Assembly (NCBI GenBank): GCA_965216055.1
Contig: OZ244134.1
Location: forward strand, 520,781-584,780
Length of the DNA stretch: 64,000 nucleotides
Source of the DNA: Salinisphaeraceae bacterium
Lineage (GTDB): Bacteria > Pseudomonadota > Gammaproteobacteria > Nevskiales > Salinisphaeraceae
Reading direction: 5' to 3'
The notes beneath the pieces were generated by a model. The model did no database searches. It saw only the letters and a list, made by a program, of their open reading frames with translations, and was not told the origin of the DNA. Position numbers and translations under genes: made by a program. This document shows, in pieces, positions 42,773 through 53,803 of this stretch (positions within the stretch are counted from its first letter, which is position 1; each line of letters begins with the position of its first letter).

Positions 42773-44395
42773 CTATGCCCGGGCGGCCGCTTTGGCGCTC
42801 TTTTCCTCGAAGCGCAGCAACTGCAGCTCGTGATTGAGCCCCTTGAGCAGCGCCACGCACATCAGCAGCAGAACCAGCGTGAACGGCAGGCCGGTGGTGA
42901 CAGCGGCCGCCTGCAGCGCGGACAGCGCCTCGGCCCCGCCGACCACCAGCAGCGCCGCGGCAATCATGCCCTCGGCAATACACCAGAACGCCCGCTGGGG
43001 CACCGGCGCCTCGGTCTTGCCGCCGGCGGTGATGGTGTCGATCACCAGTGAGCCGGAGTCCGACGAGGTAATGAAGAACACCAGCACCAGCGTAATGGCC
43101 AGGAACGACGTGACGCCGGCCAGGGGCAGGTTCTCGAGCATGTGGAACAGAGACAGCGACGAGTCGGTGATGCCGTTGGCCAACGACCCCACGCCGTTGA
43201 CGGCCTGATCAAGCCCGTTGCCGCCGAACGCGCTCATCCAGACGGCGGTGACCACCATCGGCACGATCAGCACGGCGGTAAGGAATTCGCGCACTGTGCG
43301 CCCGCGCGACACCCGGGCGATGAACATGCCCACGAACGGCGACCAGGAAATCCACCAGGCCCAGTAGAAGATGGTCCACGAGTGGTAGAAGGTATCGTCC
43401 TCGCGCCCGATCGGGTTGCTCAGCGGCAGCAGATACTCGGCATAACCGGCCGCGGTGGTGCCCAGACTGGCGAAAAAGCCCGTTACCGACCCGGTCACGA
43501 TGACGAACAGCAGCAACAGCCCGGCCAGCATGATGTTGAGATTGCTCAGCAATTTCACGCCGCCGTCGATGCCCCGCACCACCGAAACCAGCGCCACCGC
43601 GGTGACGCCGGCGATGATCAGGATTTCCACCATCAGGCTGTCGGCGATGCCGAACAGGAACTGCATGCCGCCCGCGGCCTGCTGGGCACCGAACCCCAGC
43701 GACGTGGCCAGGCCGAAGATGGTCGCCACCACCGCCAGGGTATCGATCACGTTACCCAGCGTGCCCCAGACGCGATCACCGAACAGCGGATAGAACACCG
43801 AGCGAATCGCCAGCGGCAGTCCCTTGTTATAGGCAAAAAAGGCCAGCGACAGCGCCACCACGCCGTAGATCGCCCACGGATGCAACGCCCAGTGATACAT
43901 CACCGCGCCCATGGCGGCGGTGCGGGCGGCATCGGTCCCGCCGGCGACATTCAGCGGCGAACCCGCCCATTCGGTGAAGTAACCGACCGGTTCGGCCACC
44001 GACCAGAACATCAGCCCGATACCCATGCCGGCCGCGAACAGCATCGCGAACCAGGACATGCGGGAGAACTCCGGCTCGGCATCCTGGCCACCCAGGCGGA
44101 TACGGCCGAACGGAAGCACGATCAGGGCCAGACAGAACAGCACGAAAAGGTTGCCGGCGCTCAGGAAGAGCCAGTCGAAGGTGTTGATCACCCAGTCGCG
44201 CGCGCTGGTCAGACTGGTCTTGGAAACGTTGGGGAACAGCATGGACCCGATCACAAAGACCGCGATCAGGATGGCGCTCCAGAGGAAGACCGGATTGTGC
44301 AGATCCAGCCCGAACGGGTGGATGTTGTCCTCACCGACCTCGTAATCGGTGTCGTAGCGTTCCTCAAGTTCGGCGATTTCAGCGTCCTGGCTCAT
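42773..44395 (-). CDS. BCCT family (betaine/carnitine/choline) transporter
   Basis: WFAMLFAAGMGIGLMFW, WTIFYWAWWISWSPFVGMFIARVSRGRT and FFITSSDSG. Confidence 0.95.
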   Translation of the reverse strand: MSQDAEIAELEERYDTDYEVGEDNIHPFGLDLHNPVFLWSAILIAVFVIGSMLFPNVSKTSLTSARDWVINTFDWLFLSAGNLFVLFCLALIVLPFGRIRLGGQDAEPEFSRMSWFAMLFAAGMGIGLMFWSVAEPVGYFTEWAGSPLNVAGGTDAARTAAMGAVMYHWALHPWAIYGVVALSLAFFAYNKGLPLAIRSVFYPLFGDRVWGTLGNVIDTLAVVATIFGLATSLGFGAQQAAGGMQFLFGIADSLMVEILIIAGVTAVALVSVVRGIDGGVKLLSNLNIMLAGLLLLFVIVTGSVTGFFASLGTTAAGYAEYLLPLSNPIGREDDTFYHSWTIFYWAWWISWSPFVGMFIARVSRGRTVREFLTAVLIVPMVVTAVWMSAFGGNGLDQAVNGVGSLANGITDSSLSLFHMLENLPLAGVTSFLAITLVLVFFITSSDSGSLVIDTITAGGKTEAPVPQRAFWCIAEGMIAAALLVVGGAEALSALQAAAVTTGLPFTLVLLLMCVALLKGLNHELQLLRFEEKSAKAAARA

Positions 44396-44538
44396 GACTC
44401 CCCATCTCCCGATGTTCCCGTGAAACAGCGGAAGACCCTAGCACAGCCTCGGGAAAGCGAGTCGCAAGCAGGCGCGGCGGCCGACCGGCAGATCAGACGC
44501 CGGACAGTGGTCGGCCAGGAAAGGCCGGGGAAGCGACG

Positions 44539-44868
44539 TCAGCGCAGGGCGGCGGGGCCGCCGAATTCACCGAGCGGACGCAGGAACGTGTACTTTGCGG
44601 GCGCGCCGACCAGTTGCCCGGCGGCCTCGTCGGTATTCCGCCCCAGGGCGGAAAACGGCAGCGATAGGACAAACAGCCCCGTGCCGGCCACCGTCGCCAC
44701 CAGGCTCAGCGGCCGGATAACCAGCACATCCACGCCCATGGCCGCAGCGGACGGCGCATGCCCCGCATTCAGATCGGCCGCGTGGGCCGGCTGGAATCCG
44801 ATCACCGCAACCGCCAGCAGCACCGTGGCCAGTGCCGCCCTGATTCGCGTGAATGTCGACTGGTACAT
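44539..44868 (-). CDS. Conserved small secreted/membrane hypothetical protein
   Basis: Signal-like segment followed by DVLVIRPL...SLPFSALG...PAKYTFLRPLG. Confidence 0.7.
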   Translation of the reverse strand: MYQSTFTRIRAALATVLLAVAVIGFQPAHAADLNAGHAPSAAAMGVDVLVIRPLSLVATVAGTGLFVLSLPFSALGRNTDEAAGQLVGAPAKYTFLRPLGEFGGPAALR

Positions 44869-44955
44869 GAACTTGTCCGGAGCGGGGCGTATCGCCGAAC
44901 ATTAGGCAGCCGCCCGGCCACTGTCAATCATGACCGTCACCTCCTCCGCCATCGC

Positions 44956-45276
44956 ATGAGCCAGCACCAGATCTACACCGCCTCCGACCCCGCCAATGCC
45001 CACATCGTGCGCGACTATCTCGCCGGGCACGGCATCAAGGCCCACATCCGCGGCCAGTTCCTGTGGGGTGGCATGGGTGAATTGCCTGCCAACGCCTACC
45101 CGACCCTGTGGGTGAACGACCCGGACCAGGTCGACCCGGCACGGGCACTGATTCGGCGCTTCGAGGCCGACGACACCGCCACTCGCCAGGCCTGGCGCTG
45201 CCGCAGTTGCGGTGAGGAGCTGGCCGGGCAGTTCGATGCCTGCTGGCGATGCGGGCGGGGGCGGCCGGGTGATTAG
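44956..45276 (+). CDS. DUF2007-like protein with C-terminal zinc ribbon
   Basis: IYTASDPANAHIVRDYLAGHGI and WRCRSCGE...FDACWRCG. Confidence 0.8.
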   Translation: MSQHQIYTASDPANAHIVRDYLAGHGIKAHIRGQFLWGGMGELPANAYPTLWVNDPDQVDPARALIRRFEADDTATRQAWRCRSCGEELAGQFDACWRCGRGRPGD

Positions 45277-45312
45277 TCGATGGCCCGATACATCACGAGG
45301 TGAAATCAGGCT

Positions 45313-45334
45313 GTAGGGCGCCATTCATGGCGCC
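45313..45334 (+). repeat. GTAG-type REP sequence
   Basis: GTAGGGCGCCATTCATGGCGCC, 21/22 identical to the reverse complement of 29562-29583. Confidence 0.75.
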
Positions 45335-45419
45335 TGCTCAATTGGGCTTTAGGCCGGCATAAGCAAAGTGTTGCCTGCAATTCGGCATAACGGTGACCCC
45401 GAGAAAGAATAAGATTCCG

Positions 45420-45620
45420 TCCCGCTAAAGCGGGCCGGTTGTCTTTCTTGTGCGACATGAAAGTCACCAAAGAAACGCTTCCGGCGGGCGAGTCCTGCCT
45501 CGAACGGGGTTCGAGGCAGGATGCCTTGTGCGCTTCGGCCGGCGAGGGGGTTTTCGACGGTACTTCCATGTACCGACGAAAACCGCGCGCCTGTCCTGGG
45601 CGCGCCCCTGACGGGCCGGG
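45420..45620. repeat. Structured extragenic repeat element with nested hairpins
   Basis: 13-bp perfect stem at 45493-45521; GGTTTTCG-a-CGGTAC-ttccat-GTACCG-a-CGAAAACC at 45549-45584; GCGCGCC...GGCGCGC at 45585-45605. Confidence 0.55.
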
Positions 45621-45721
45621 AACCTCGTCGCCCTTCAGGGCGAAATTCTTCGAATACATATCCGGCAACAAGAATCTGCGCAAACCACTATCTCACCCAG
45701 AACAAGTGCGACCATATCTCC

Positions 45722-46195
45722 ATGCACATAGCCCTCTACCAACCCGAAATCCCGCCCAACACCGGCAATGTCATCCGCCTCTGCGCCAATCTCGGCGCTA
45801 CCCTGCACCTGATCGAACCACTCGGGTTCGAACTGGATGACGCCCGCCTGCGCCGGGCCGGCCTGGACTATCGGGAGCTTGCGTGCCTGCAGACCTGGCC
45901 GGATCTGGACAGTCTTCGCCTCGCCCTGCCCGGCAACCGGCTGCTGGCCTGCTCCACCCGCGGCCGGCAGCGCTACGATCAGGTTCGGTATGGGCCGGAG
46001 GATCTCCTCCTGTTCGGGCCCGAAACCCGGGGGCTGCCGGATACGCTGCTGTCGACCCTGCCACCGGCGCAGGTGCTGCGCATTCCGATGCGGCCCGGCA
46101 ATCGCAGTCTGAATCTGTCGAACGCGGTGTCGGTGATCGCCTTCGAGGCCTGGCGGCAGGCCGATTTCGACGGTGCGGGTCTGACCCCGGATTGA
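45722..46195 (+). CDS. trmL: tRNA (cytidine(34)-2'-O)-methyltransferase TrmL
   Basis: IALYQPEIPPNTGN, LRRAGLDY, FGPETRGL and RSLNLSNAV. Confidence 0.95.
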   Translation: MHIALYQPEIPPNTGNVIRLCANLGATLHLIEPLGFELDDARLRRAGLDYRELACLQTWPDLDSLRLALPGNRLLACSTRGRQRYDQVRYGPEDLLLFGPETRGLPDTLLSTLPPAQVLRIPMRPGNRSLNLSNAVSVIAFEAWRQADFDGAGLTPD

Positions 46196-46213
46196 TTGCA
46201 TTATCATCCTTCC

Positions 46214-46849
46214 ATGAGCGCAACACCGCAGACAAGTATCCGGGTATTGCTGGTCGACGACCACGCAGTGGTGCGGGCCGGCTACGGCCGGTTGCTCAAG
46301 AGCGCGCCGGACATCCTGGTCGCCGGCGAGACCGATACCGGCGAATCGGCCTACCAGCTGGTCAGTCAGAGCCACTTCGACGTGGTGGTGATGGACCTGT
46401 CGCTGCCGGGCATGAGCGGCATCGAGGCCTGTTCGCGCATCCGCAAGCGCCGCCCCGACAGCCGGGTGCTGGTGTTTTCGGTGCACGAGGAAGAGATCTT
46501 CGTGAAGCGGGCACTACAGGCCGGGGCGGATGGTTACCTCACCAAACGCGCAGTGGCCGAGGTGCTGGTGGACGCGGTGCGCGAGGTTGCGGCCGGCCGG
46601 CGCTATCTCGACCCCAACCTCGCCATGGCCGGCGCAGGCGTCGATCCGCTGGCCTGCCTGTCGCGGCGGGAGTTCGAGATATTCCGGCTGCTGGCCGAGG
46701 GCCATGCGGTGCCGGACATCGCCAACGCCCTGTTTCTGAGCCCGAAGACCGTGTCCAACCACGCCAGCCGCATCCGCACCAAACTGGATGCTGCCTCGGC
46801 GGCGGATCTGACCCGGCTGGCGATCCGCCGCGGCGTGATCGCCGCCTGA
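46214..46849 (+). CDS. NarL/LuxR-family response regulator (MxcE/PedR2/ExaE-like)
   Basis: LVDDH, VMDLSLPG, YLTK and LSRREFEIFRLLAEG...LSPKTVSNH. Confidence 0.9.
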   Translation: MSATPQTSIRVLLVDDHAVVRAGYGRLLKSAPDILVAGETDTGESAYQLVSQSHFDVVVMDLSLPGMSGIEACSRIRKRRPDSRVLVFSVHEEEIFVKRALQAGADGYLTKRAVAEVLVDAVREVAAGRRYLDPNLAMAGAGVDPLACLSRREFEIFRLLAEGHAVPDIANALFLSPKTVSNHASRIRTKLDAASAADLTRLAIRRGVIAA

Positions 46850-46852
46850 CCG

Positions 46853-48217
46853 GTGGCTGCCGGCCGCCACGGACCGCGCCGATCACCCCGGCTGGGTCTG
46901 CGGGCACGGTTGATGCTGTTCATCACCCTGCTGCTGGCAATGATCCTGCTGGCCGCCACGGCCCTGGTGATCCAGAACGCGCGCATCGCCGTCAGCGAGG
47001 AAACCGAAGCCACCGTGTCGCTGGCGGCGGCCCTGCTGGGCCGCACCCTGCCCCGGCATACCAACAGCAATGATCTGCTGCGCCAGTTCACGCCCGGGGA
47101 TCAGCTGCGCCACCTGTGTCTGCGGCTGATCCTGCCGCGCACCCCGGCCCCGACCTGCGCCGATACCATCCCGCCCGGCACACCGGCCTGGTTCGCCGCA
47201 CTGACCCGCCCGGAACAGGCCGGCGAAACCGTGCTCGATATCGAGGGCCAGCCCGGGCGCATCCTGATTCATGCCGACCCGGCCGACGAGATCGCCGAAG
47301 CCTGGCGGGATGTGCGCGGCCTGCTGGCGCTGATCCTGTTGTTCTACGCGGTTTCGCTGGCCGCGGTGTTCCGGTCGCTGGGCCACATCACCCGGCCGGT
47401 ACACAGCATCAGCGCCGCGCTGGCCGGGGTCGAACACGGCGAGTTCGAGCGCCGCCTGCCGGCCTTCGACATGCCGGAGTTCGACCGTCTCGCCGCCCGT
47501 TTCAACCTGATGGTGGCCACGCTGGAACGCACGCGCGACGAGAACCAGCGGCTGCACCGCCACTCCCTGCGCATCCAGGAAACCGAGCGCCAGCGCCTGG
47601 CCCGCGAGCTGCATGACGAACTCGGCCAGAGCCTGACCGCCATCCGCGCGGATGTGGGCGGCATTCTCGCCCGCGAGGACAGCCTCCCGGCCGATGTGGC
47701 GGAATCGGCCCGGGCGATCAGCGAGGTAGCCGGCCGCATCTATGATCAGGCCCGCAGCATGATGCGCCGGTTGCGCCCGCCCGGGCTCGACGAACTGGGT
47801 CTGGCGCCAGCGCTGGAGGAAACCGTGGCCGGCTGGCAGCGACAGAATCCGGATGTCGCGTATCACCTCACGCCGGCCAGCGACCTGTCCGCCCTGGATC
47901 CGGAGATCGCCATCCACGTATTCCGCATCGTGCAGGAGGCCCTGACCAATGCCCACCGGCACGCCTCACCCCGAACCATTCGTATCCGGCTGGCGGGCGA
48001 GGAAGACCAGGTAACCGCCACCATCGAGGACGACGGTAACGGCTTCGACCCGGCGCGCATGTCCACCGGGGTGGGCATTTCCGGCATGCGCGAGCGTGCC
48101 CAGCTGCTGGGCGGGCAGGTGCAGATCACCAGCCGCCCGGGGCGCGGTACCCGGGTTCACGCCAGCCTGCCACGGACCCCGCCGAAAAATCGGGAAGTAT
48201 TCCCATTGAGCGATTAG
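46853..48217 (+). CDS. Sensor histidine kinase with MoxY/LapD-like periplasmic region, HAMP, HisKA_3 and HATPase (MxcQ/PedS2-like)
   Basis: LRARL + TM + ARIAVSEETEATV N-terminus, second TM, HAMP, LARELHDELGQSLTAI, QEALTNAHRHA, DDGNGF and GVGISGMRER. Confidence 0.85.
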   Translation: MAAGRHGPRRSPRLGLRARLMLFITLLLAMILLAATALVIQNARIAVSEETEATVSLAAALLGRTLPRHTNSNDLLRQFTPGDQLRHLCLRLILPRTPAPTCADTIPPGTPAWFAALTRPEQAGETVLDIEGQPGRILIHADPADEIAEAWRDVRGLLALILLFYAVSLAAVFRSLGHITRPVHSISAALAGVEHGEFERRLPAFDMPEFDRLAARFNLMVATLERTRDENQRLHRHSLRIQETERQRLARELHDELGQSLTAIRADVGGILAREDSLPADVAESARAISEVAGRIYDQARSMMRRLRPPGLDELGLAPALEETVAGWQRQNPDVAYHLTPASDLSALDPEIAIHVFRIVQEALTNAHRHASPRTIRIRLAGEEDQVTATIEDDGNGFDPARMSTGVGISGMRERAQLLGGQVQITSRPGRGTRVHASLPRTPPKNREVFPLSD

Positions 48218-48253
48218 CGGCCCCGATCGAGTATGACGTTTCACGCCATACTC
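48192..48253. promoter_or_regulatory. Candidate operator palindromes upstream of the TonB-dependent receptor
   Basis: GGGAA-gta-TTCCC (48192-48204) and GAGTATGACGT-ttc-ACGCCATACTC (48229-48253, one mismatch). Confidence 0.35.
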
Positions 48254-48279
48254 ATAAATCATGAAGGGGAGACATCGGG

Positions 48280-50649
48280 ATGCCAAACGCCACACGGAGG
48301 CTGGCACTCGCATCGGCAATGATTGCCGTGAGTGTCGGGGCGCAAGCGCAGAACGACGAGCAACGCCTGGAACCGGTCGACGTCATCAGCACCACGCCGT
48401 TCGAGGGCAGCGAAGTCGACGCCAACCGTTACCCGGCCAACGTGCAGTCCAGCACAGCCGAGGACATCGAACGCACCGACCCGGTCAACATGGTCGAGTT
48501 CCTGAACACCGAACTGGGCAGCGTCCACATCAATGACGCCGTGAACAACCCGTTCCAGCCCGACCTCAAGTACCGGGGCTACGTCGCCTCGCCACTGCTG
48601 GGTCTGCCCCAGGGCATTTCCGTCTACCAGGATGGCGTTCGCGTGAACGAACCCTTCGGCGACACCGTCAATTTCGATCTGATTCCCCAGGCGGCGATCG
48701 CCGACATCGACCTGCTGCCCGGCTCCAATCCGCTGTTCGGGCTGAATACCCTGGGCGGGGCACTCAACATCAAGACCAAGACCGGCTTTTCCCACCCGGG
48801 TCTGCAGGCCGAGGCCTACGGCGGCGACTTCGGGCGCTACGGCGGTCACGTCTCGCTCGGCGGCAACAGTGGCGACCTGGGCTGGCTGTTCCTCGTCCAG
48901 GGCATGGAAGAGGACGGCTGGCGTGACTTCTCCAGTTCGGAAGTCCTGCAGCTGTTCTCCAAGTTCAGCCACATAGGCGCGAACGGGGAGACCCATTTTT
49001 CGGTAACCGCCGCGGACAACACGCTGCGCGGTAACGGCGCGGTACCCCGGCGGCTGGCCGAGGAACGCGGCCGCGACCAGATATTCACCTTCCCGGACGA
49101 AACGTCACCAGAAATGGTAATGCTCAACCTGCGCGGCGTGCGCGACCTCGGCGAGCGGTTATCGCTGGCCTGGGGCGGCTATTATCGGAAAAGCGACGTC
49201 GACACGTTCAACGGCGACGGCAGCGAATTCGAGGAATGCTCCGAATTTTTCGGCCCGAACGACCCCAACGCCGACAATCTCTGCGAAGAACCGGAGGAAC
49301 CCGGCGAGATGGCCGAAGTGGTCGAGCAGCCCAATGGCGATCCGATCCCCGCCAATGACACCACCGAGGGGGGCACCCAGAACACGTCCAGCACCGAACA
49401 GGATGGCTGGGGCGTCAACCTGCAATTGCAGTCGCCGGGCCTGATCAGCGGTGAACTGACTACCGGCCTGACCTACGACGCCGGTGACAGCGACTTCGCT
49501 TCGCAGCAGGAAGTTGCCCGGCTGACCGCCCAGCGCGGCACCGTGGGCAGCGGTTTCTTCGTGGGCGAGTCCTTCACCCGGGTCAACGTGGACAACAGCA
49601 ATATCGGCGCCTTCTTCCTGCACCGCGCCCCGCTGACGCCGGACCTCGAATGGACCCTGGGCGGACGCTTCAACCGCACCGAGATCACGCTCAACGACCA
49701 GACGCCGGCGTTTGCCACCGAACCCGGCAACAGCCTGGACGGCGACCATCATTTCTCCCGCCTGAACATGACCACCGGGCTGGCCTGGGAAATGTCGCGC
49801 CAGCTGACCTTCTTCGGCAGCGTGGGTCAGTCCTCGCGGGCACCCTCTCCGCTGGAGCTGACCTGCGCCAATCCCGATGCCCCGTGCCGGCTGCCCAACG
49901 GATTCGTGGATGATCCCCCGCTGGCGCAGGTGGTGGCCACCACCATCGAGGTCGGCGCCCGCGGCGGCACCCGCAACCTGGCCTGGCGTACCGCGGCATT
50001 CCACGCCGTCAACGAGGACGACATCATCTTCATCTCGGCCGGCAACCGCTTCGAGGGCTTCTTCGACAACGTCGGTGACACCCGCCGGCAGGGCGTGGAA
50101 CTGGGCATGGAATGGCGGGTGATGCCCACAGTGCGGCTGAGTGCGGACTACACCTACCTCAACGCGGAATTCCGCGACAGCTTCCGCGTGAACTCGCCCA
50201 ACCACCCCAACCGCGAACCCGATCCGGCGAATCCGGGCGAGACCCGCGCCGCCGACAGTGCCCAGCAGGTCAATTCGGGCGACCGGCTGCCGCTGGTGCC
50301 CGAGCATATCTTCAAGCTGGGTGCCGACTGGGAGGCAAGCGATCTCGTGCGTCTCGGCGTCGACGTGATCGGCAACAGCGACCAGATCTTCCGCGGCGAC
50401 GAATCCAATACCGACAGCGAAACCATCGACGGCTTCGCCATCGTCAACCTGCGCGGGGAGATTTCGGTGACCAGCGCGGTGTCCCTGTTCGCCCGGGTGA
50501 ACAACGTGTTCGACACCGACTACGAGACCTTCGGGGTTTACGGCGAATCGGACGAGGTCCTGGCCGGGCCGCAGTTCGAGGACGCGTTCCGCTTCATCGG
50601 TCCCGGTGCGCCGCGCGGCATCTGGGGCGGTATCCGGGTGGCGTTGTAA
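48280..50649 (+). CDS. TonB-dependent receptor, LutH-like subfamily (candidate lanthanide/lanthanophore uptake)
   Basis: Signal peptide, plug motif NNPFQPDLKYRGYVASPLLGLPQGISVYQDGVRVNEPFGDTVNFDLIP...GSNPLFGLNTLGGA, and C-terminal PGAPRGIWGGIRVAL. Confidence 0.9.
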   Translation: MPNATRRLALASAMIAVSVGAQAQNDEQRLEPVDVISTTPFEGSEVDANRYPANVQSSTAEDIERTDPVNMVEFLNTELGSVHINDAVNNPFQPDLKYRGYVASPLLGLPQGISVYQDGVRVNEPFGDTVNFDLIPQAAIADIDLLPGSNPLFGLNTLGGALNIKTKTGFSHPGLQAEAYGGDFGRYGGHVSLGGNSGDLGWLFLVQGMEEDGWRDFSSSEVLQLFSKFSHIGANGETHFSVTAADNTLRGNGAVPRRLAEERGRDQIFTFPDETSPEMVMLNLRGVRDLGERLSLAWGGYYRKSDVDTFNGDGSEFEECSEFFGPNDPNADNLCEEPEEPGEMAEVVEQPNGDPIPANDTTEGGTQNTSSTEQDGWGVNLQLQSPGLISGELTTGLTYDAGDSDFASQQEVARLTAQRGTVGSGFFVGESFTRVNVDNSNIGAFFLHRAPLTPDLEWTLGGRFNRTEITLNDQTPAFATEPGNSLDGDHHFSRLNMTTGLAWEMSRQLTFFGSVGQSSRAPSPLELTCANPDAPCRLPNGFVDDPPLAQVVATTIEVGARGGTRNLAWRTAAFHAVNEDDIIFISAGNRFEGFFDNVGDTRRQGVELGMEWRVMPTVRLSADYTYLNAEFRDSFRVNSPNHPNREPDPANPGETRAADSAQQVNSGDRLPLVPEHIFKLGADWEASDLVRLGVDVIGNSDQIFRGDESNTDSETIDGFAIVNLRGEISVTSAVSLFARVNNVFDTDYETFGVYGESDEVLAGPQFEDAFRFIGPGAPRGIWGGIRVAL

Positions 50650-50735
50650 TCACGTTTGGTATCTACATGTCCTGTATAGAAGCGCCCGGGCTCCGGTCCG
50701 GGCGCCCGTTAACTCACCACGACAGGGATCGACCG

Positions 50736-51278
50736 ATGCGCAAGGCATTCACGACGACCGGCCTGTTGGCACTGTCACTGACAGCACCGGCGGCGATCGC
50801 CGGACACGGCAATCACGGCAGGGTTTCGCTGGAGGATTGCCTGACCGCCGCCAGCGCCGTCAAACAGGGCGACTTCATCAAGGCGGAGTATCTCAACGTC
50901 ACCACGGGCGGCGACCCCACCTACGAGATCGAGGTACGCGATGATCAGGGCACCGAGTGGGAGCTGATGTGCAGCGCCCGCACCGGTGATATCTACGAGC
51001 TGGAAACCGAGGCCGATGGCGCCGACGATCCGGCGTTTGCCGACGCGGCCAAGATCAGCGAGAAAGAGGCCCGCAAGATCGCCACCGATCGCTTTCCCGG
51101 CACCATCGAGGAAGTGGAGTACGAGATCGAGGCCAGTGGCGATCCCAGTTACGAAATCGACGTGGTCGACGAAGGCGGCACCGAGTTCAAACTGGAAGTC
51201 GATGCGGTCAGCGGCGATATCATCGAGGTGTCCGTGGAACACTGGGAGATCGGCGAGGAGCCGGCCGAAAAGCCCTGA
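50736..51278 (+). CDS. Periplasmic, very acidic double-PepSY protein (lanpepsy/LanP-like)
   Basis: 22-aa signal peptide, two PepSY repeats and about 42 D/E in 158 mature residues; start ATG at 50736. Confidence 0.85.
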   Translation: MRKAFTTTGLLALSLTAPAAIAGHGNHGRVSLEDCLTAASAVKQGDFIKAEYLNVTTGGDPTYEIEVRDDQGTEWELMCSARTGDIYELETEADGADDPAFADAAKISEKEARKIATDRFPGTIEEVEYEIEASGDPSYEIDVVDEGGTEFKLEVDAVSGDIIEVSVEHWEIGEEPAEKP

Positions 51279-51301
51279 CCCATCCCGTTACGTCGATGAC
51301 G

Positions 51302-51329
51302 AAAAGAACCCCGCTCCGGCGGGGTTTTT
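51302..51329. terminator. Rho-independent (probably bidirectional) terminator
   Basis: AAAAG-AACCCCGC-tccg-GCGGGGTT-TTT between the convergent PepSY gene and plsB. Confidence 0.85.
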
Positions 51330-51340
51330 CATGTCCGGCG

Positions 51341-53803
51341 CTATTCGGCCGGCGACTGACTGGTCAGGTGCAGGATGGTCTGGCGGATATCCGGTCCCAG
51401 TAGCTGCAGGGCGTGTTCGGCCAGTACCCGCATGTGCGGGTCGATGCGCAGGGAGCCACCGTTACCGGTGAGCAGTCCGTCGCGCTGCAGGGTCTGCAGA
51501 TGGTTGCGGAACAGCCGCAGATCGAAGAACTCGGGACTGTTACGGCCGGTAAGAATGGCCATGCGTTCGGCCATGAGCTGGCACTGGCGCTCGAATGCGC
51601 CGCGCTCGATATGACCGCTGTCGAGACTGTTGGCCAGCAGCACTGCGGTCATGCCGTAACGCTCCAGGGTTTCGCGCATGATGCGCGCCAGACTGATCAG
51701 GGCCGCGAATTCGCGGGTGCCGACTGCCGGGCGCCGCAGGTCGGCGGTGTGCTCATCCCTGGCCAGCAGTCCCACGGTGAGCATGCCGTCCAGCGCCGCA
51801 TCCAGCGCCGGCGCCACGCCGTCCGCCGGCCAGCGCAGGAACAGTTCCGAGGCCAGCAGCGGATAGAGCGCCTCGGCGTCGCGCAACACCCCGGCCCGCG
51901 AGCAGGTCTCCGAATGGGCAAAGAAATTGGCCAGTAACGACGGCAGCGCAAACAGGTGCATCACGTTGTTGCGGGTATAGGTCAGCAGCACCGCGTCGCG
52001 ATCGGCCAGCGTGAGCACATCGCCCCAGGCATGGGGGTGACGCTGCAGCCGCACCAGCGGCTCGGCCTCGGCCAGCAGTGCCGTACCGTCACCCGACGGC
52101 AGGCGGACATCCGGGCTGTAGGGACAGGCCCGCGCCAGCGCCAGCAGCGCTTCCACGCCATGGATGAGTTCGTGCTCGGCCACGGCCTTCTGCGGGCTGC
52201 CCAGCAGGATCAGCGATACCAGCCCGGCCGCGTTGAGCGACGCCGTTGCATTGATGCGCACCATCACCGTTTCGGCCACGTCGTCGACGAAACCGGTCAG
52301 CCAGTCGGGGCGCGAGGGCCCGGGCACCGCCGGCAGCTGGTCGCGCCAGCCGGGCCGGTGGCGGTCGGCCCACTGATCCAGGCGCAGCGGTTCGCCGAAC
52401 GAGATATGCGCCCGTCCGTACTTGCGGGACAGCACCTTGCGGCTGCTGCGCAACAGCCCGCGCACGGACTCCCCCTTCTTGGGGCGGGTGCCGCTGAGCT
52501 CCTCGAAGTAACTGTTGACCTCCATCACCCGGTCGTAGCCGATGTAGACCGGCACCAGCGCCACCGGACGCTCCGGATGATGCAGCAGCCCGCCGGCCAC
52601 CATCGCCAGCATGCCGGTCTTGGGCGGCAGCAGCCGGCCGGTGCGGCTGCGCCCGCCCTCGGGGTAGAATTTCATCGGCTGCCCCCGGCCGATGAGCACG
52701 TCCACGTAACTGCGGAAAACCGCGGTGTAGAGCTTGTCCCCCCGGAAACTGCGCCGGAGATAGAACGCTCCGCAGCGTCGCAACAGCCCGCCGACCGGCC
52801 AGAAGTCCAGATTGATGCCGGCGGCAATCTGCGGCAGGGCGAACCCCTCCTGGTAGAGGATGTAGGACACCAGCAGGTAATCCATGTGGCTGCGGTGCGA
52901 GGGCAGATACACCAGCGAGGCATCGTGGGCGGTATCGCGCAGCCGTTGCAGATGGGCCACTTCGACGCCGTCGTAGATGCGATGCCACAACCAGGACAGC
53001 ACCCGCAACATGAAGCCGATGGCGATGTTGGAGTAGTCGGCGGCGATCTCGTCGGCGCAGGATCGTGCCCGGGCCCGGATCGCGGCGACGCTGACGTTCT
53101 CGGCCCGGGCGGTCCGCTCGATCACCGCCCGCACTTCCGGGTCGGCCAGCACGGAATTGATCACCTGGCCGCGATGCGACAGCGCGGGCCCCAGCGTGGC
53201 CGCGCGCTGACGCCGGAAATGCACCCGCAGTACCCGGGAGAGCTTGCGTACCGCCACCTCGGGTGCCACGTCCCGGCCGGCGAATGCGCGGTAATCCAGC
53301 GGCTGCCCGAAGTGCAGCAACGTATTGCGGCCCTGCGCCAGGATGATCAGCAGTTTGCGCAGCCGTCCGGGGCGTTCCGTATCCGCGAACAGGATGCGAA
53401 ACAGCGACGTCTCCTTGACCGGGTTCTGACCCCAGAAAATGGATACCGGCACGATCTGCACGCCGGATGCCGGGGCCTCCATACCCTGCTGGATCATCCG
53501 CTGCCAGACCGCCCGGCCGCGCCCCGCGGCTTCGGGCAGGGCCAGCACCACCGCCCGGTCGTCCGCGGGTAGCCGGTGGCGGACCGGATGCGGCCGCGGC
53601 AGGCCATGGGCGGCCACCGCCATTTCCAGCGCCAGCCAGTCGCTCACGCCGGTGCCGGCCAGCACGTAACAGATGCGCCGCTGATCATCCAGGGCCAGCT
53701 CCTTCAGATCGGTCGGCGTCACGCGGGGGCGGACCCACGCCCGCAACGGCCAGCGCACCAGACCCACGAACAGCAGCAGCACACGGCTGAGAAACGCACG
53801 CAT
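51341..53803 (-). CDS. plsB: Glycerol-3-phosphate 1-O-acyltransferase PlsB
   Basis: PSHRSHMDYLL, AAGINL, FYPEGGRSRTG and VPVYIGYDRVME; start MRAFLS at 53803. Confidence 0.95.
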   Translation of the reverse strand: MRAFLSRVLLLFVGLVRWPLRAWVRPRVTPTDLKELALDDQRRICYVLAGTGVSDWLALEMAVAAHGLPRPHPVRHRLPADDRAVVLALPEAAGRGRAVWQRMIQQGMEAPASGVQIVPVSIFWGQNPVKETSLFRILFADTERPGRLRKLLIILAQGRNTLLHFGQPLDYRAFAGRDVAPEVAVRKLSRVLRVHFRRQRAATLGPALSHRGQVINSVLADPEVRAVIERTARAENVSVAAIRARARSCADEIAADYSNIAIGFMLRVLSWLWHRIYDGVEVAHLQRLRDTAHDASLVYLPSHRSHMDYLLVSYILYQEGFALPQIAAGINLDFWPVGGLLRRCGAFYLRRSFRGDKLYTAVFRSYVDVLIGRGQPMKFYPEGGRSRTGRLLPPKTGMLAMVAGGLLHHPERPVALVPVYIGYDRVMEVNSYFEELSGTRPKKGESVRGLLRSSRKVLSRKYGRAHISFGEPLRLDQWADRHRPGWRDQLPAVPGPSRPDWLTGFVDDVAETVMVRINATASLNAAGLVSLILLGSPQKAVAEHELIHGVEALLALARACPYSPDVRLPSGDGTALLAEAEPLVRLQRHPHAWGDVLTLADRDAVLLTYTRNNVMHLFALPSLLANFFAHSETCSRAGVLRDAEALYPLLASELFLRWPADGVAPALDAALDGMLTVGLLARDEHTADLRRPAVGTREFAALISLARIMRETLERYGMTAVLLANSLDSGHIERGAFERQCQLMAERMAILTGRNSPEFFDLRLFRNHLQTLQRDGLLTGNGGSLRIDPHMRVLAEHALQLLGPDIRQTILHLTSQSPAE

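What the first reader, a model, noticed from the sequence alone, without database searches (positions are those of the whole stretch)
50736..51278. Lanpepsy-like protein with about 27% acidic residues and a Cys pair
Seen: after the signal peptide come two aligned repeats (VSLEDCLTAA...GDPTYEIEVRDDQGTEWELMCSARTGDIYELE and ISEKEARKIA...GDPSYEIDVVDEGGTEFKLEVDAVSGDIIEVS). There are about 42 D/E in 158 residues, and two Cys in the first repeat (possible disulfide). Size and layout fit what I recall of LanP. Inference: a carboxylate-rich Ln3+ binder, possibly a halophile-adapted variant useful for rare-earth recovery. A hairpin at 50682-50705 between receptor and this gene may uncouple their expression levels.
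Basis: partly seen in the sequence, partly recalled or inferred. Interest (0 to 1): 0.62.

Follow-up and report, generated by a model that had tools for sequence, protein, structure and literature searches.

The report
Lanpepsy lanthanide-binding protein orthologue
This gene encodes a small secreted, very acidic protein that is a clear relative of lanpepsy, a known rare-earth-binding protein. It closes a four-gene sensor, importer and binder cluster in a marine Salinisphaeraceae bacterium that also has rare-earth-dependent alcohol dehydrogenases.

Summary
The 180-aa ORF has a signal peptide and two PepSY repeats. It has 42 Asp/Glu in 158 mature residues and two Cys.

The lanpepsy (LanP) reading is strongly supported.
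- The only solved-structure match is the M. flagellatus LanP crystal chain (47-48% identity over the whole mature chain, E 8e-37).
- All nine lanthanum ligands named for that structure are acidic here, and both Cys are conserved.
- The two extra ligands of LanP's mid-lanthanide site 1' are lost (Thr57, Met78).

The acidity is a family trait, not a halophile effect. Relatives have 22-28% D/E; the genome's median protein has 12%.

The genome encodes an XoxF-like and a PedH-like dehydrogenase, both with the lanthanide Asp signature. In the family, all 8 LanP-bearing genomes have such dehydrogenases, against 6 of 20 without LanP.

The regulator, MoxY-like kinase, TonB receptor and lanP order recurs in eight Salinisphaeraceae/Arenicellales loci.

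The hairpin is real (-23.8 kcal/mol) but has no U-tract. Six Salinisphaera-type loci have a full terminator at the same spot.

Metal binding was not measured. Verdict: a new member of a known kind, of moderate interest.

The parts
50736..51278 (+). lanP orthologue: 180-aa precursor (19.4 kDa), mature 158 aa (17.2 kDa), pI about 4.05
   Evidence: Translation. Pfam PepSY x2. Only PDB hit is the LanP chain 9vy3_A, E 8e-37. BLASTP gives 47% identity, E 4e-38.
50736..50801 (+). Sec-type signal peptide (MRK, hydrophobic core, AIA|G), followed by a short His/Gly-rich tail GHGNHG
   Evidence: Read from the sequence. Low pLDDT for residues 1-28 in the AlphaFold model. No signal-peptide predictor was run.
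50823..51020 (+). PepSY repeat 1 (residues 30-95): helix 32-42 and four strands. Holds C35 and C79, the acidic positions E51, E64, E66, E76, E88, E90, E92, and R68 in place of LanP E46
   Evidence: Secondary structure. Invariant columns. Mapping onto LanP.
51051..51251 (+). PepSY repeat 2 (residues 106-172): helix 109-119 and four strands. Holds E126, E128, E130, E132, E140, D142, E150, K152, E154, D156, E164, E168
   Evidence: Pfam best stretch 106-165. Model. Ligand mapping.
50682..50705 (+). G+C-rich hairpin between the receptor stop (50649) and the lanP start; no U-tract follows it
   Evidence: -23.8 kcal/mol, z = -4.6. Not called a terminator. Not a dispersed repeat: one other 8-bp-stem match in the genome. 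Six Salinisphaera-type loci have a hairpin plus a T-run of 5-8 here.
51305..51330 (.). Two-way intrinsic terminator between lanP and the convergent plsB-like gene; marks the end of the cassette
   Evidence: Terminator scan finds it on both strands.
48280..50649 (+). TonB-dependent receptor (789 aa) just upstream, with a Cys-bracketed, very acidic loop FNGDGSEFEEC...CEEPEEP
   Evidence: Pfam Plug plus barrel. Homologous receptors within 6 kb of lanP in 14 of 80 related loci. Loop conserved in 11 lanP-linked receptors and absent from the genome's second receptor.
46853..48217 (+). Sensor histidine kinase (HAMP, HisKA_3, HATPase) with a divergent LapD/MoxY-type periplasmic domain and the motif ADPADEIAEAW
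   Evidence: Pfam (LapD_MoxY_N 22 bits against a cut-off of 25). Colinear with kinases next to lanP in Methylococcales, which score 39-56 bits.
46196..46849 (+). NarL/LuxR-type response regulator, first gene of the cassette
   Evidence: Pfam Response_reg plus GerE. Conserved order in 8 loci.

Best explanation
The ORF encodes a periplasmic lanpepsy (LanP) orthologue. After Sec export, two PepSY domains pack as a pseudo-dimer into an eight-stranded barrel. The lumen is lined with conserved Glu/Asp, which chelate several closely stacked Ln3+ ions through bridging carboxylates, as in the M. flagellatus LanP crystal structures. Here the sixth site, which holds middle lanthanides, is probably missing. 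lanP is the last gene of a cassette of regulator, MoxY-like kinase, TonB receptor and lanP. It most likely captures and buffers lanthanide brought across the outer membrane by that receptor, for the XoxF-like and PedH-like dehydrogenases encoded elsewhere in the genome. Shown here: homology, ligand conservation, gene order and co-occurrence. Inferred: metal binding, stoichiometry, selectivity and the physiological hand-off.
For: Sequence and ligands:
- The only PDB match is 9vy3_A (E 8e-37, 48% identity over 150 aa). The 9VY3-9VYA entries are apo and Ln-bound M. flagellatus lanpepsy.
- BLASTP gives 47% identity and E 4e-38 over the whole chain. This passes the >=85% coverage, E<=1e-20 criterion of Hemmann et al..
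- All nine named La ligands (D54, E66, E68, E104, E106, E108, E118, E132, E142) are acidic in the query, and K130 is kept.
- Eighteen acidic columns and C79 are invariant in 24 relatives.
- The AlphaFold model has mean pLDDT 87, with 2 helices and 8 strands.

Acidity:
- Relatives have 22-28% D/E, against a proteome median of 12%.

Genome and co-occurrence:
- The genome has an XoxF-like enzyme (best PDB match 6oc5, 956 bits) and a PedH-like enzyme (6zcv, 836 bits), both with WDYDG.
- All 11 other LanP-bearing genomes tested have a WD[YF]DG dehydrogenase.
- Within the family, 8 of 8 LanP-positive genomes have a PQQ alcohol dehydrogenase, against 6 of 20 LanP-negative ones (Fisher p = 0.001).

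Gene order:
- The cassette is conserved in 8 loci.
- Across 80 related loci, lanP lies within 6 kb of a MoxY-type kinase in 21 and of a homologous receptor in 14. It lies within the 8-kb flanks of a PQQ dehydrogenase in 11; 7 of these carry the Ln signature, 6 within about 1 kb of lanP and one (L011) 3.2 kb away.
Against: - No binding, expression or knockout data exist for this protein. The RNA runs carrying the species label gave no coverage.
- Even for M. flagellatus LanP the physiological role is unknown and its deletion has no growth phenotype.
- Only 9 of LanP's 19 La ligands are named in accessible text, so full ligand conservation is unproven.
- LanP E46, E56, D58 and E35 are R68, M78, S80 and T57 here, so stoichiometry or selectivity may differ.
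- Foldseek could not confirm the fold against LanP because its library lacks the 9VY entries.
- No dehydrogenase lies near the cassette in this genome.
- The co-occurrence statistic ignores shared ancestry.
Confidence: 0.82

Rival explanations
1. LanP acts mainly in signalling. It is the periplasmic ligand-presenting partner of the adjacent MoxY/MxaY-type histidine kinase, so the cassette senses lanthanide through LanP rather than only storing it. This can coexist with the buffer role.
For: lanP lies within 6 kb of a kinase with a homologous LapD/MoxY-type sensor domain in 21 of 80 loci across Salinisphaeraceae, Arenicellales and Methylococcales. The sensor domain carries a conserved acidic motif (A/N)(D/N)PxDEIxExW at residues about 137-164, depending on the start codon chosen. 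This is the region where the constitutive MxaY E147G mutation lies.
Against: Adjacency is not universal: 13 of 54 loci with full flanks. Small PepSY genes often sit beside two-component systems in general (my own knowledge). Identity of these kinases with M. buryatense MxaY was not shown; sources name them only LapD/MoxY-domain or UhpB-like. No interaction data exist.
Confidence: 0.18
2. It is a general or different-metal binder (Ca2+, Fe3+, uranyl or other hard cations), like the PepSY protein UipA, and its link to lanthanide biology is incidental.
For: PepSY domains bind uranyl and Fe3+ in UipA. Carboxylate-rich sites are not inherently lanthanide-specific. A paralogue in this genome heads a heavy-metal-type RND efflux operon.
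Against: No UipA chain appears in the PDB search even at E<=1; only LanP does. The bridging carboxylates that stack Ln ions are conserved. LanP itself prefers Ln over Ca. Co-occurrence and adjacency with Ln-type dehydrogenases are tight.
Confidence: 0.07
3. It is an ordinary PepSY protein (protease-inhibitor or unknown envelope role) whose acidity reflects a halophilic proteome.
For: Sources annotate relatives only as 'PepSY domain-containing protein' or 'YkoI'. The host family is salt-loving (my own knowledge).
Against: The proteome is not acidic: median D+E 12.1% and K+R 10.6%. At 23% D/E over its full length the protein would rank fourth among about 2,300 ORFs. Non-halophile relatives are equally acidic. 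No peptidase gene is adjacent.
Confidence: 0.02

Closest known systems
Lanpepsy / LanP (Mfla_0908 of Methylobacillus flagellatus; PDB 9VY3-9VYA)
   Same: Signal peptide, 19-kDa precursor, two PepSY domains and 47-48% identity over the whole mature chain. All nine named La ligands, K130 and both Cys are conserved. The host has XoxF and no lanmodulin-like protein was noticed.
   Different: The host is a Salinisphaeraceae bacterium, not a Methylophilaceae or Methylococcaceae methylotroph. The site-1' ligands E35 and E56 are replaced by T57 and M78. LanP E46 is R68, nearly invariant in this gammaproteobacterial clade, and K33 is L53. Net charge is more negative (about -30 against -17). The gene sits behind a TonB receptor and a two-component system, a linkage not mentioned in the LanP papers read here.
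UipA (Microbacterium uranium/iron-binding PepSY protein, PDB 7ATH)
   Same: Acidic PepSY domains that bind hard metal cations outside the cytoplasm.
   Different: UipA is anchored by a transmembrane helix and forms a domain-swapped dimer with a concave sheet. It gives no sequence hit at E<=1.
Lanmodulin (LanM) of Methylorubrum extorquens
   Same: The likely job: a small periplasmic protein with several Ln sites, selective over Ca, encoded near a TonB receptor.
   Different: Unrelated fold (EF hands) with dispersed sites 12-30 A apart, against stacked sites about 4.3 A apart in LanP.

Membership tests
Lanpepsy (LanP) | Small (about 19 kDa) exported protein with a Sec signal peptide and no membrane anchor | tested here: met
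   Precursor 19.4 kDa. The N-terminus has MRK, a hydrophobic core and AIA|G. Judged by eye; no predictor was run.
Lanpepsy (LanP) | Two PepSY domains (PF03413) | tested here: met
   Two stretches, 81 bits against a cut-off of 24. Internal repeat z = 15.
Lanpepsy (LanP) | Close homology to Mfla_0908 (>=85% coverage, E<=1e-20, the criterion of Hemmann et al.) | tested here: met
   47% identity, E 4e-38, all 150 chain residues aligned. phmmer E 8e-37. Criterion.
Lanpepsy (LanP) | Carboxylate ligands of the five stacked La(III) sites | tested here: met
   Nine of nine named ligands are acidic and K130 is kept. The other 10 of the 19 ligands are not named in accessible text. Twenty-four of LanP's 34 acidic positions are acidic here.
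Lanpepsy (LanP) | Extra site 1' for middle lanthanides (ligands E35 and E56) | tested here: not met
   T57 and M78 occupy these positions. This is a feature of the M. flagellatus protein, not of the family definition.
Lanpepsy (LanP) | Pseudo-twofold eight-stranded barrel with an acidic lumen | tested here: inconclusive
   The model has 8 strands and 2 helices at pLDDT >90 in the core.
Lanpepsy (LanP) | Binds several Ln3+ with selectivity over Ca2+ | not testable with these tools
   Needs purified protein.
Lanpepsy (LanP) | Induced by lanthanide | not testable with these tools
   RNA runs carrying the species label gave no coverage of the region.
Lanpepsy (LanP) | Host encodes a lanthanide-type PQQ alcohol dehydrogenase | tested here: met
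   An XoxF-like and a PedH-like enzyme with WDYDG. Family-level co-occurrence is 8/8 against 6/20.
UipA-type PepSY metal binder | Single-pass membrane anchor and sequence similarity to UipA | tested here: not met
   No hydrophobic segment beyond the signal peptide. No UipA hit at E<=1.

The most novel reading that the evidence does not exclude
LanP is the periplasmic co-sensor of MoxY/MxaY-type kinases. In this reading the cassette of regulator, kinase, acidic-loop TonB receptor and LanP is a portable sense, import and hold module. It lets non-methylotrophic marine bacteria detect and acquire picomolar lanthanides. That would give a concrete answer to how lanthanides are sensed.
Probability: 0.15. 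Interest if true: 0.7.

Novelty: new member of a known kind. Interest (0 to 1): 0.38.

Why it matters
Lanpepsy is one of very few natural lanthanide-binding scaffolds. Its stacked-ion barrel has recently been used to separate neighbouring rare earths. This orthologue is a natural variant from a salt-tolerant marine lineage. It keeps the bridging ligands but lacks the mid-lanthanide extra site and carries a higher negative charge. It is therefore a cheap test of which residues set stoichiometry and selectivity.

For biology, LanP was previously described mainly in methylotrophs and methanotrophs. Here it is tied to a TonB receptor and a MoxY-like sensor kinase in a family not known for methylotrophy. 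LanP also tracks lanthanide-type dehydrogenases within that family. This gives LanP, whose role is still unknown, a testable place between import, sensing and enzyme loading.

Tried and rejected
- Foldseek of the AlphaFold model against the PDB gave only weak two-PepSY matches (YpmB, DUF2874; TM 0.35). Its library stops before the 9VY entries, so this says nothing about LanP.
- NCBIfam has no model for the protein.
- RNA evidence failed. No RNA run holds the gene, and four runs carrying the species label gave zero coverage even over plsB.
- Rfam found nothing significant in 44000-52500.
- The hairpin is not a dispersed REP-like element; the genome has one other 8-bp-stem match.
- The halophilic-proteome explanation is rejected.
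- I tried to decide whether the receptor is LanA-like or LutH-like. No reference sequences were reachable, and the nearest structures (YncD/PqqU) match only the plug. The paper by Groom et al. is not held.
- I tried to show that the kinases next to lanP are MxaY. Sources name them only LapD/MoxY-domain or UhpB-like kinases.
- The LanP2-RND arrangement was not found in the 80 related loci, apart from one weak case.

Full report
**Observation.** The ORF at 50736-51278 (+) gives a 180-aa protein.
- It starts with a Sec-type leader (MRK, hydrophobic core, AIA|G).
- The 158-residue mature part has 42 Asp/Glu (26.6%), 12 Lys/Arg, pI about 4.05 and exactly two Cys, C35 and C79.
- The precursor is 19.4 kDa and the mature form 17.2 kDa.
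- Pfam calls two PepSY domains, 81 bits against a cut-off of 24.
- The 388-aa ORF at 50112-51278 is an open-frame artefact overlapping the receptor gene. Relatives begin at the ATG at 50736.

**Identity.**
- A search of all PDB sequences returns a single hit, 9vy3_A and its seven sister entries (E 8e-37, 48% identity over residues 24-175).
- A 2025 preprint identifies 9VY3-9VYA as apo and La, Nd, Sm, Gd, Tb, Ho and Yb complexes of M. flagellatus lanpepsy.
- BLASTP gives 47% identity and E 4e-38 over the whole chain. This meets the criterion Hemmann et al. used for functional homologues.
- The residue numbers in the preprint match the chain numbering. The text and supplement name D54, E66, E68, E104, E106, E108, E118, E132 and E142 as La ligands, six of them bridging ions only about 4.3 A apart, with K130 as stabiliser.
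- In the query these are E76, E88, E90, E126, E128, E130, E140, E154, E164 and K152. All are conserved.
- Both Cys align with the two Cys of LanP. C79 is invariant and C35 is present in at least 90% of 24 relatives. A disulfide is plausible but was not measured.
- Eighteen acidic columns are invariant across the 24 relatives.
- The AlphaFold model (mean pLDDT 87, core above 95) has one helix plus four strands in each repeat, as in LanP.

**Differences from LanP.**
- E35 and E56 bind the additional Sm-to-Ho ion at site 1' in LanP. Here they are T57 and M78.
- LanP E46 is R68, nearly invariant in this gammaproteobacterial clade. D58 is S80 and K33 is L53.
- I therefore predict the five-site core without the sixth mid-lanthanide site. 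This is inference only.

**Acidity.**
- A rough gene set for the 3.11-Mb genome has median D+E 12.1%, K+R 10.6%, and a 99th percentile for D+E of 19%. The proteome is not acid-shifted.
- LanP relatives range from 22 to 28% D/E. One from Methylomicrobium agile reaches 28%.
- The acidity is a family property. Only the low Lys/Arg count (net about -30 against -17 for LanP) might reflect the saline habitat.

**Host and lanthanide use.**
- The closest locus (95% identity) is a Salinisphaeraceae MAG. The next are Salinisphaera species.
- The genome has three PQQ alcohol dehydrogenases above the TIGR03075 cut-off.
- One is closest to XoxF (6oc5, 956 bits) and one to PedH (6zcv, 836 bits). Both carry WDYDG.
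- The extra Asp is the accepted lanthanide-coordination signature (established knowledge). The third enzyme has WDFSG.
- The xoxF gene is followed by a cytochrome c gene.
- All 11 other LanP-bearing genomes tested hold a WD[YF]DG enzyme.
- Among 28 species genomes of the family, LanP occurs in 8, in 2 of 7 genera. All 8 have a PQQ alcohol dehydrogenase, against 6 of 20 without LanP. Fisher p = 0.001, not corrected for shared ancestry.

**Gene context.**
- lanP ends a co-oriented set: NarL/LuxR regulator (46196-46849), HAMP/HisKA_3 kinase (46853-48217), TonB-dependent receptor (48280-50649) and lanP. The set is closed by a two-way terminator at 51305-51330.
- It lies between a TrmL-like gene and a plsB-like gene; both were named by eye only.
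- The same order occurs in eight loci of Salinisphaeraceae and an Arenicellales MAG.
- In Methylococcales, lanP instead sits beside a kinase and regulator pair. That kinase is colinear with the window's, and its periplasmic part scores 39-56 bits on LapD_MoxY_N. The window's kinase scores 22 bits, just under the cut-off.
- All these kinases share (A/N)(D/N)PxDEIxExW at residues about 137-164, depending on the start codon chosen. This is the region of the constitutive MxaY E147G mutation. Orthology to MxaY was not proven.
- Of 80 related loci, 21 have such a kinase and 14 a homologous receptor within 6 kb of lanP.
- Eleven loci have a PQQ dehydrogenase within the 8-kb flanks. Seven of these are the lanthanide type, six within about 1 kb of lanP (for example Crenothrix and Halieaceae) and one (L011) 3.2 kb away.
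- None of the LanP papers read here mentions these linkages.

**Hairpin.**
- The stem-loop at 50682-50705 is strong (-23.8 kcal/mol) but has no U-tract and is not a repeated element.
- The 95%-identical MAG keeps it, with G.U changed to G-C.
- Six Salinisphaera-type loci carry unrelated hairpins followed by a T-run of 5-8 T, that is, full terminators, at the same place.
- A transcriptional break or attenuator between the receptor gene and lanP is therefore a conserved theme. Its effect here is untested.

**Family size.** An exhaustive search of 1.84 billion cluster representatives finds 805 proteins at E<=1e-3, 161 at 1e-10 and 16 at 1e-30. Of 185,579 species genomes, 137 encode a relative. 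The family is small and mostly gammaproteobacterial in the GTDB sense.

**Mechanism and verdict.** The most likely function is periplasmic capture and buffering of Ln3+ imported by the adjacent receptor, for the XoxF- and PedH-type enzymes. A possible second role is presenting lanthanide to the MoxY-like kinase. This is a new member of a known family, with a predicted site difference and a context that had not been remarked on. It is moderately interesting and its biochemistry is unverified.

Noticed in passing
L115 (G000:C1:2495001-2502600); lanP2 at C1:2501195-2501713 (-): A second LanP paralogue (50% identical to this one, 41% to M. flagellatus LanP; E64 is V and D156 is H). It heads an operon with an outer-membrane efflux protein, a probable fusion protein and a 1029-aa RND pump. 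This echoes the La-induced CusA-type RND system of M. flagellatus. The arrangement was not seen in the 80 related loci.
   Followed up: partly
L116 (G000:C1:1554001-1559500): A second module: a LuxR-type regulator (divergent), a HisKA_3 kinase with the motif ATPDDEVAEVW (33% identical to the window's kinase, including the sensor part) and a 752-aa TonB receptor. It has no lanP and lacks the acidic receptor loop.
   Followed up: partly
window 49207-49365 (receptor residues 310-362): Receptors linked to lanP share a Cys-bracketed, extremely acidic loop, FNGDG(S/T)(E/D)FE(E/D)C...CEE. In two marine MAGs it expands to runs of 10-20 Asp/Glu. It could be a surface lanthanide-capture loop.
   Followed up: partly
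window 47273-47305 (kinase residues 141-151): The motif ADPADEIAEAW ends the periplasmic sensor domain. It is conserved in all 21 lanP-linked kinases examined, from Salinisphaeraceae to Methylococcales. It falls where the constitutive MxaY E147G mutation was mapped.
   Followed up: partly
window 50802-50819 (residues 23-28, GHGNHG): The mature N-terminus is a short His/Gly-rich tail. Similar tails (GHDHH, GHGSHGGHDHS, DHGGHNYS) recur in several relatives but not in M. flagellatus LanP. It may be an extra metal handle.
   Followed up: no
G000:C1:1696000-1713000: The xoxF cluster holds xoxF, a cytochrome c, a periplasmic binding protein, MoxR-like and vWA proteins. About 8 kb away lies a PepSY-TM membrane protein next to another TonB receptor.
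   Followed up: partly
L103, L104, L107 (Salinisphaera shabanensis, Methylohalomonas lacus, S. orenii): Two Salinisphaera genomes (S. shabanensis L103, S. orenii L107) also carry an MxaF-type (WDYAG, Ca-type) methanol dehydrogenase, which hints at overlooked methylotrophy in the genus; the third hit, L104, is from the known methylotroph Methylohalomonas lacus.
   Followed up: no
L037, L049, L023, L033, L034, L053: In Crenothrix, Methylococcales, Halieaceae and marine Pseudomonadota loci, lanP lies 0.1-1 kb downstream of a lanthanide-type PQQ dehydrogenase.
   Followed up: partly
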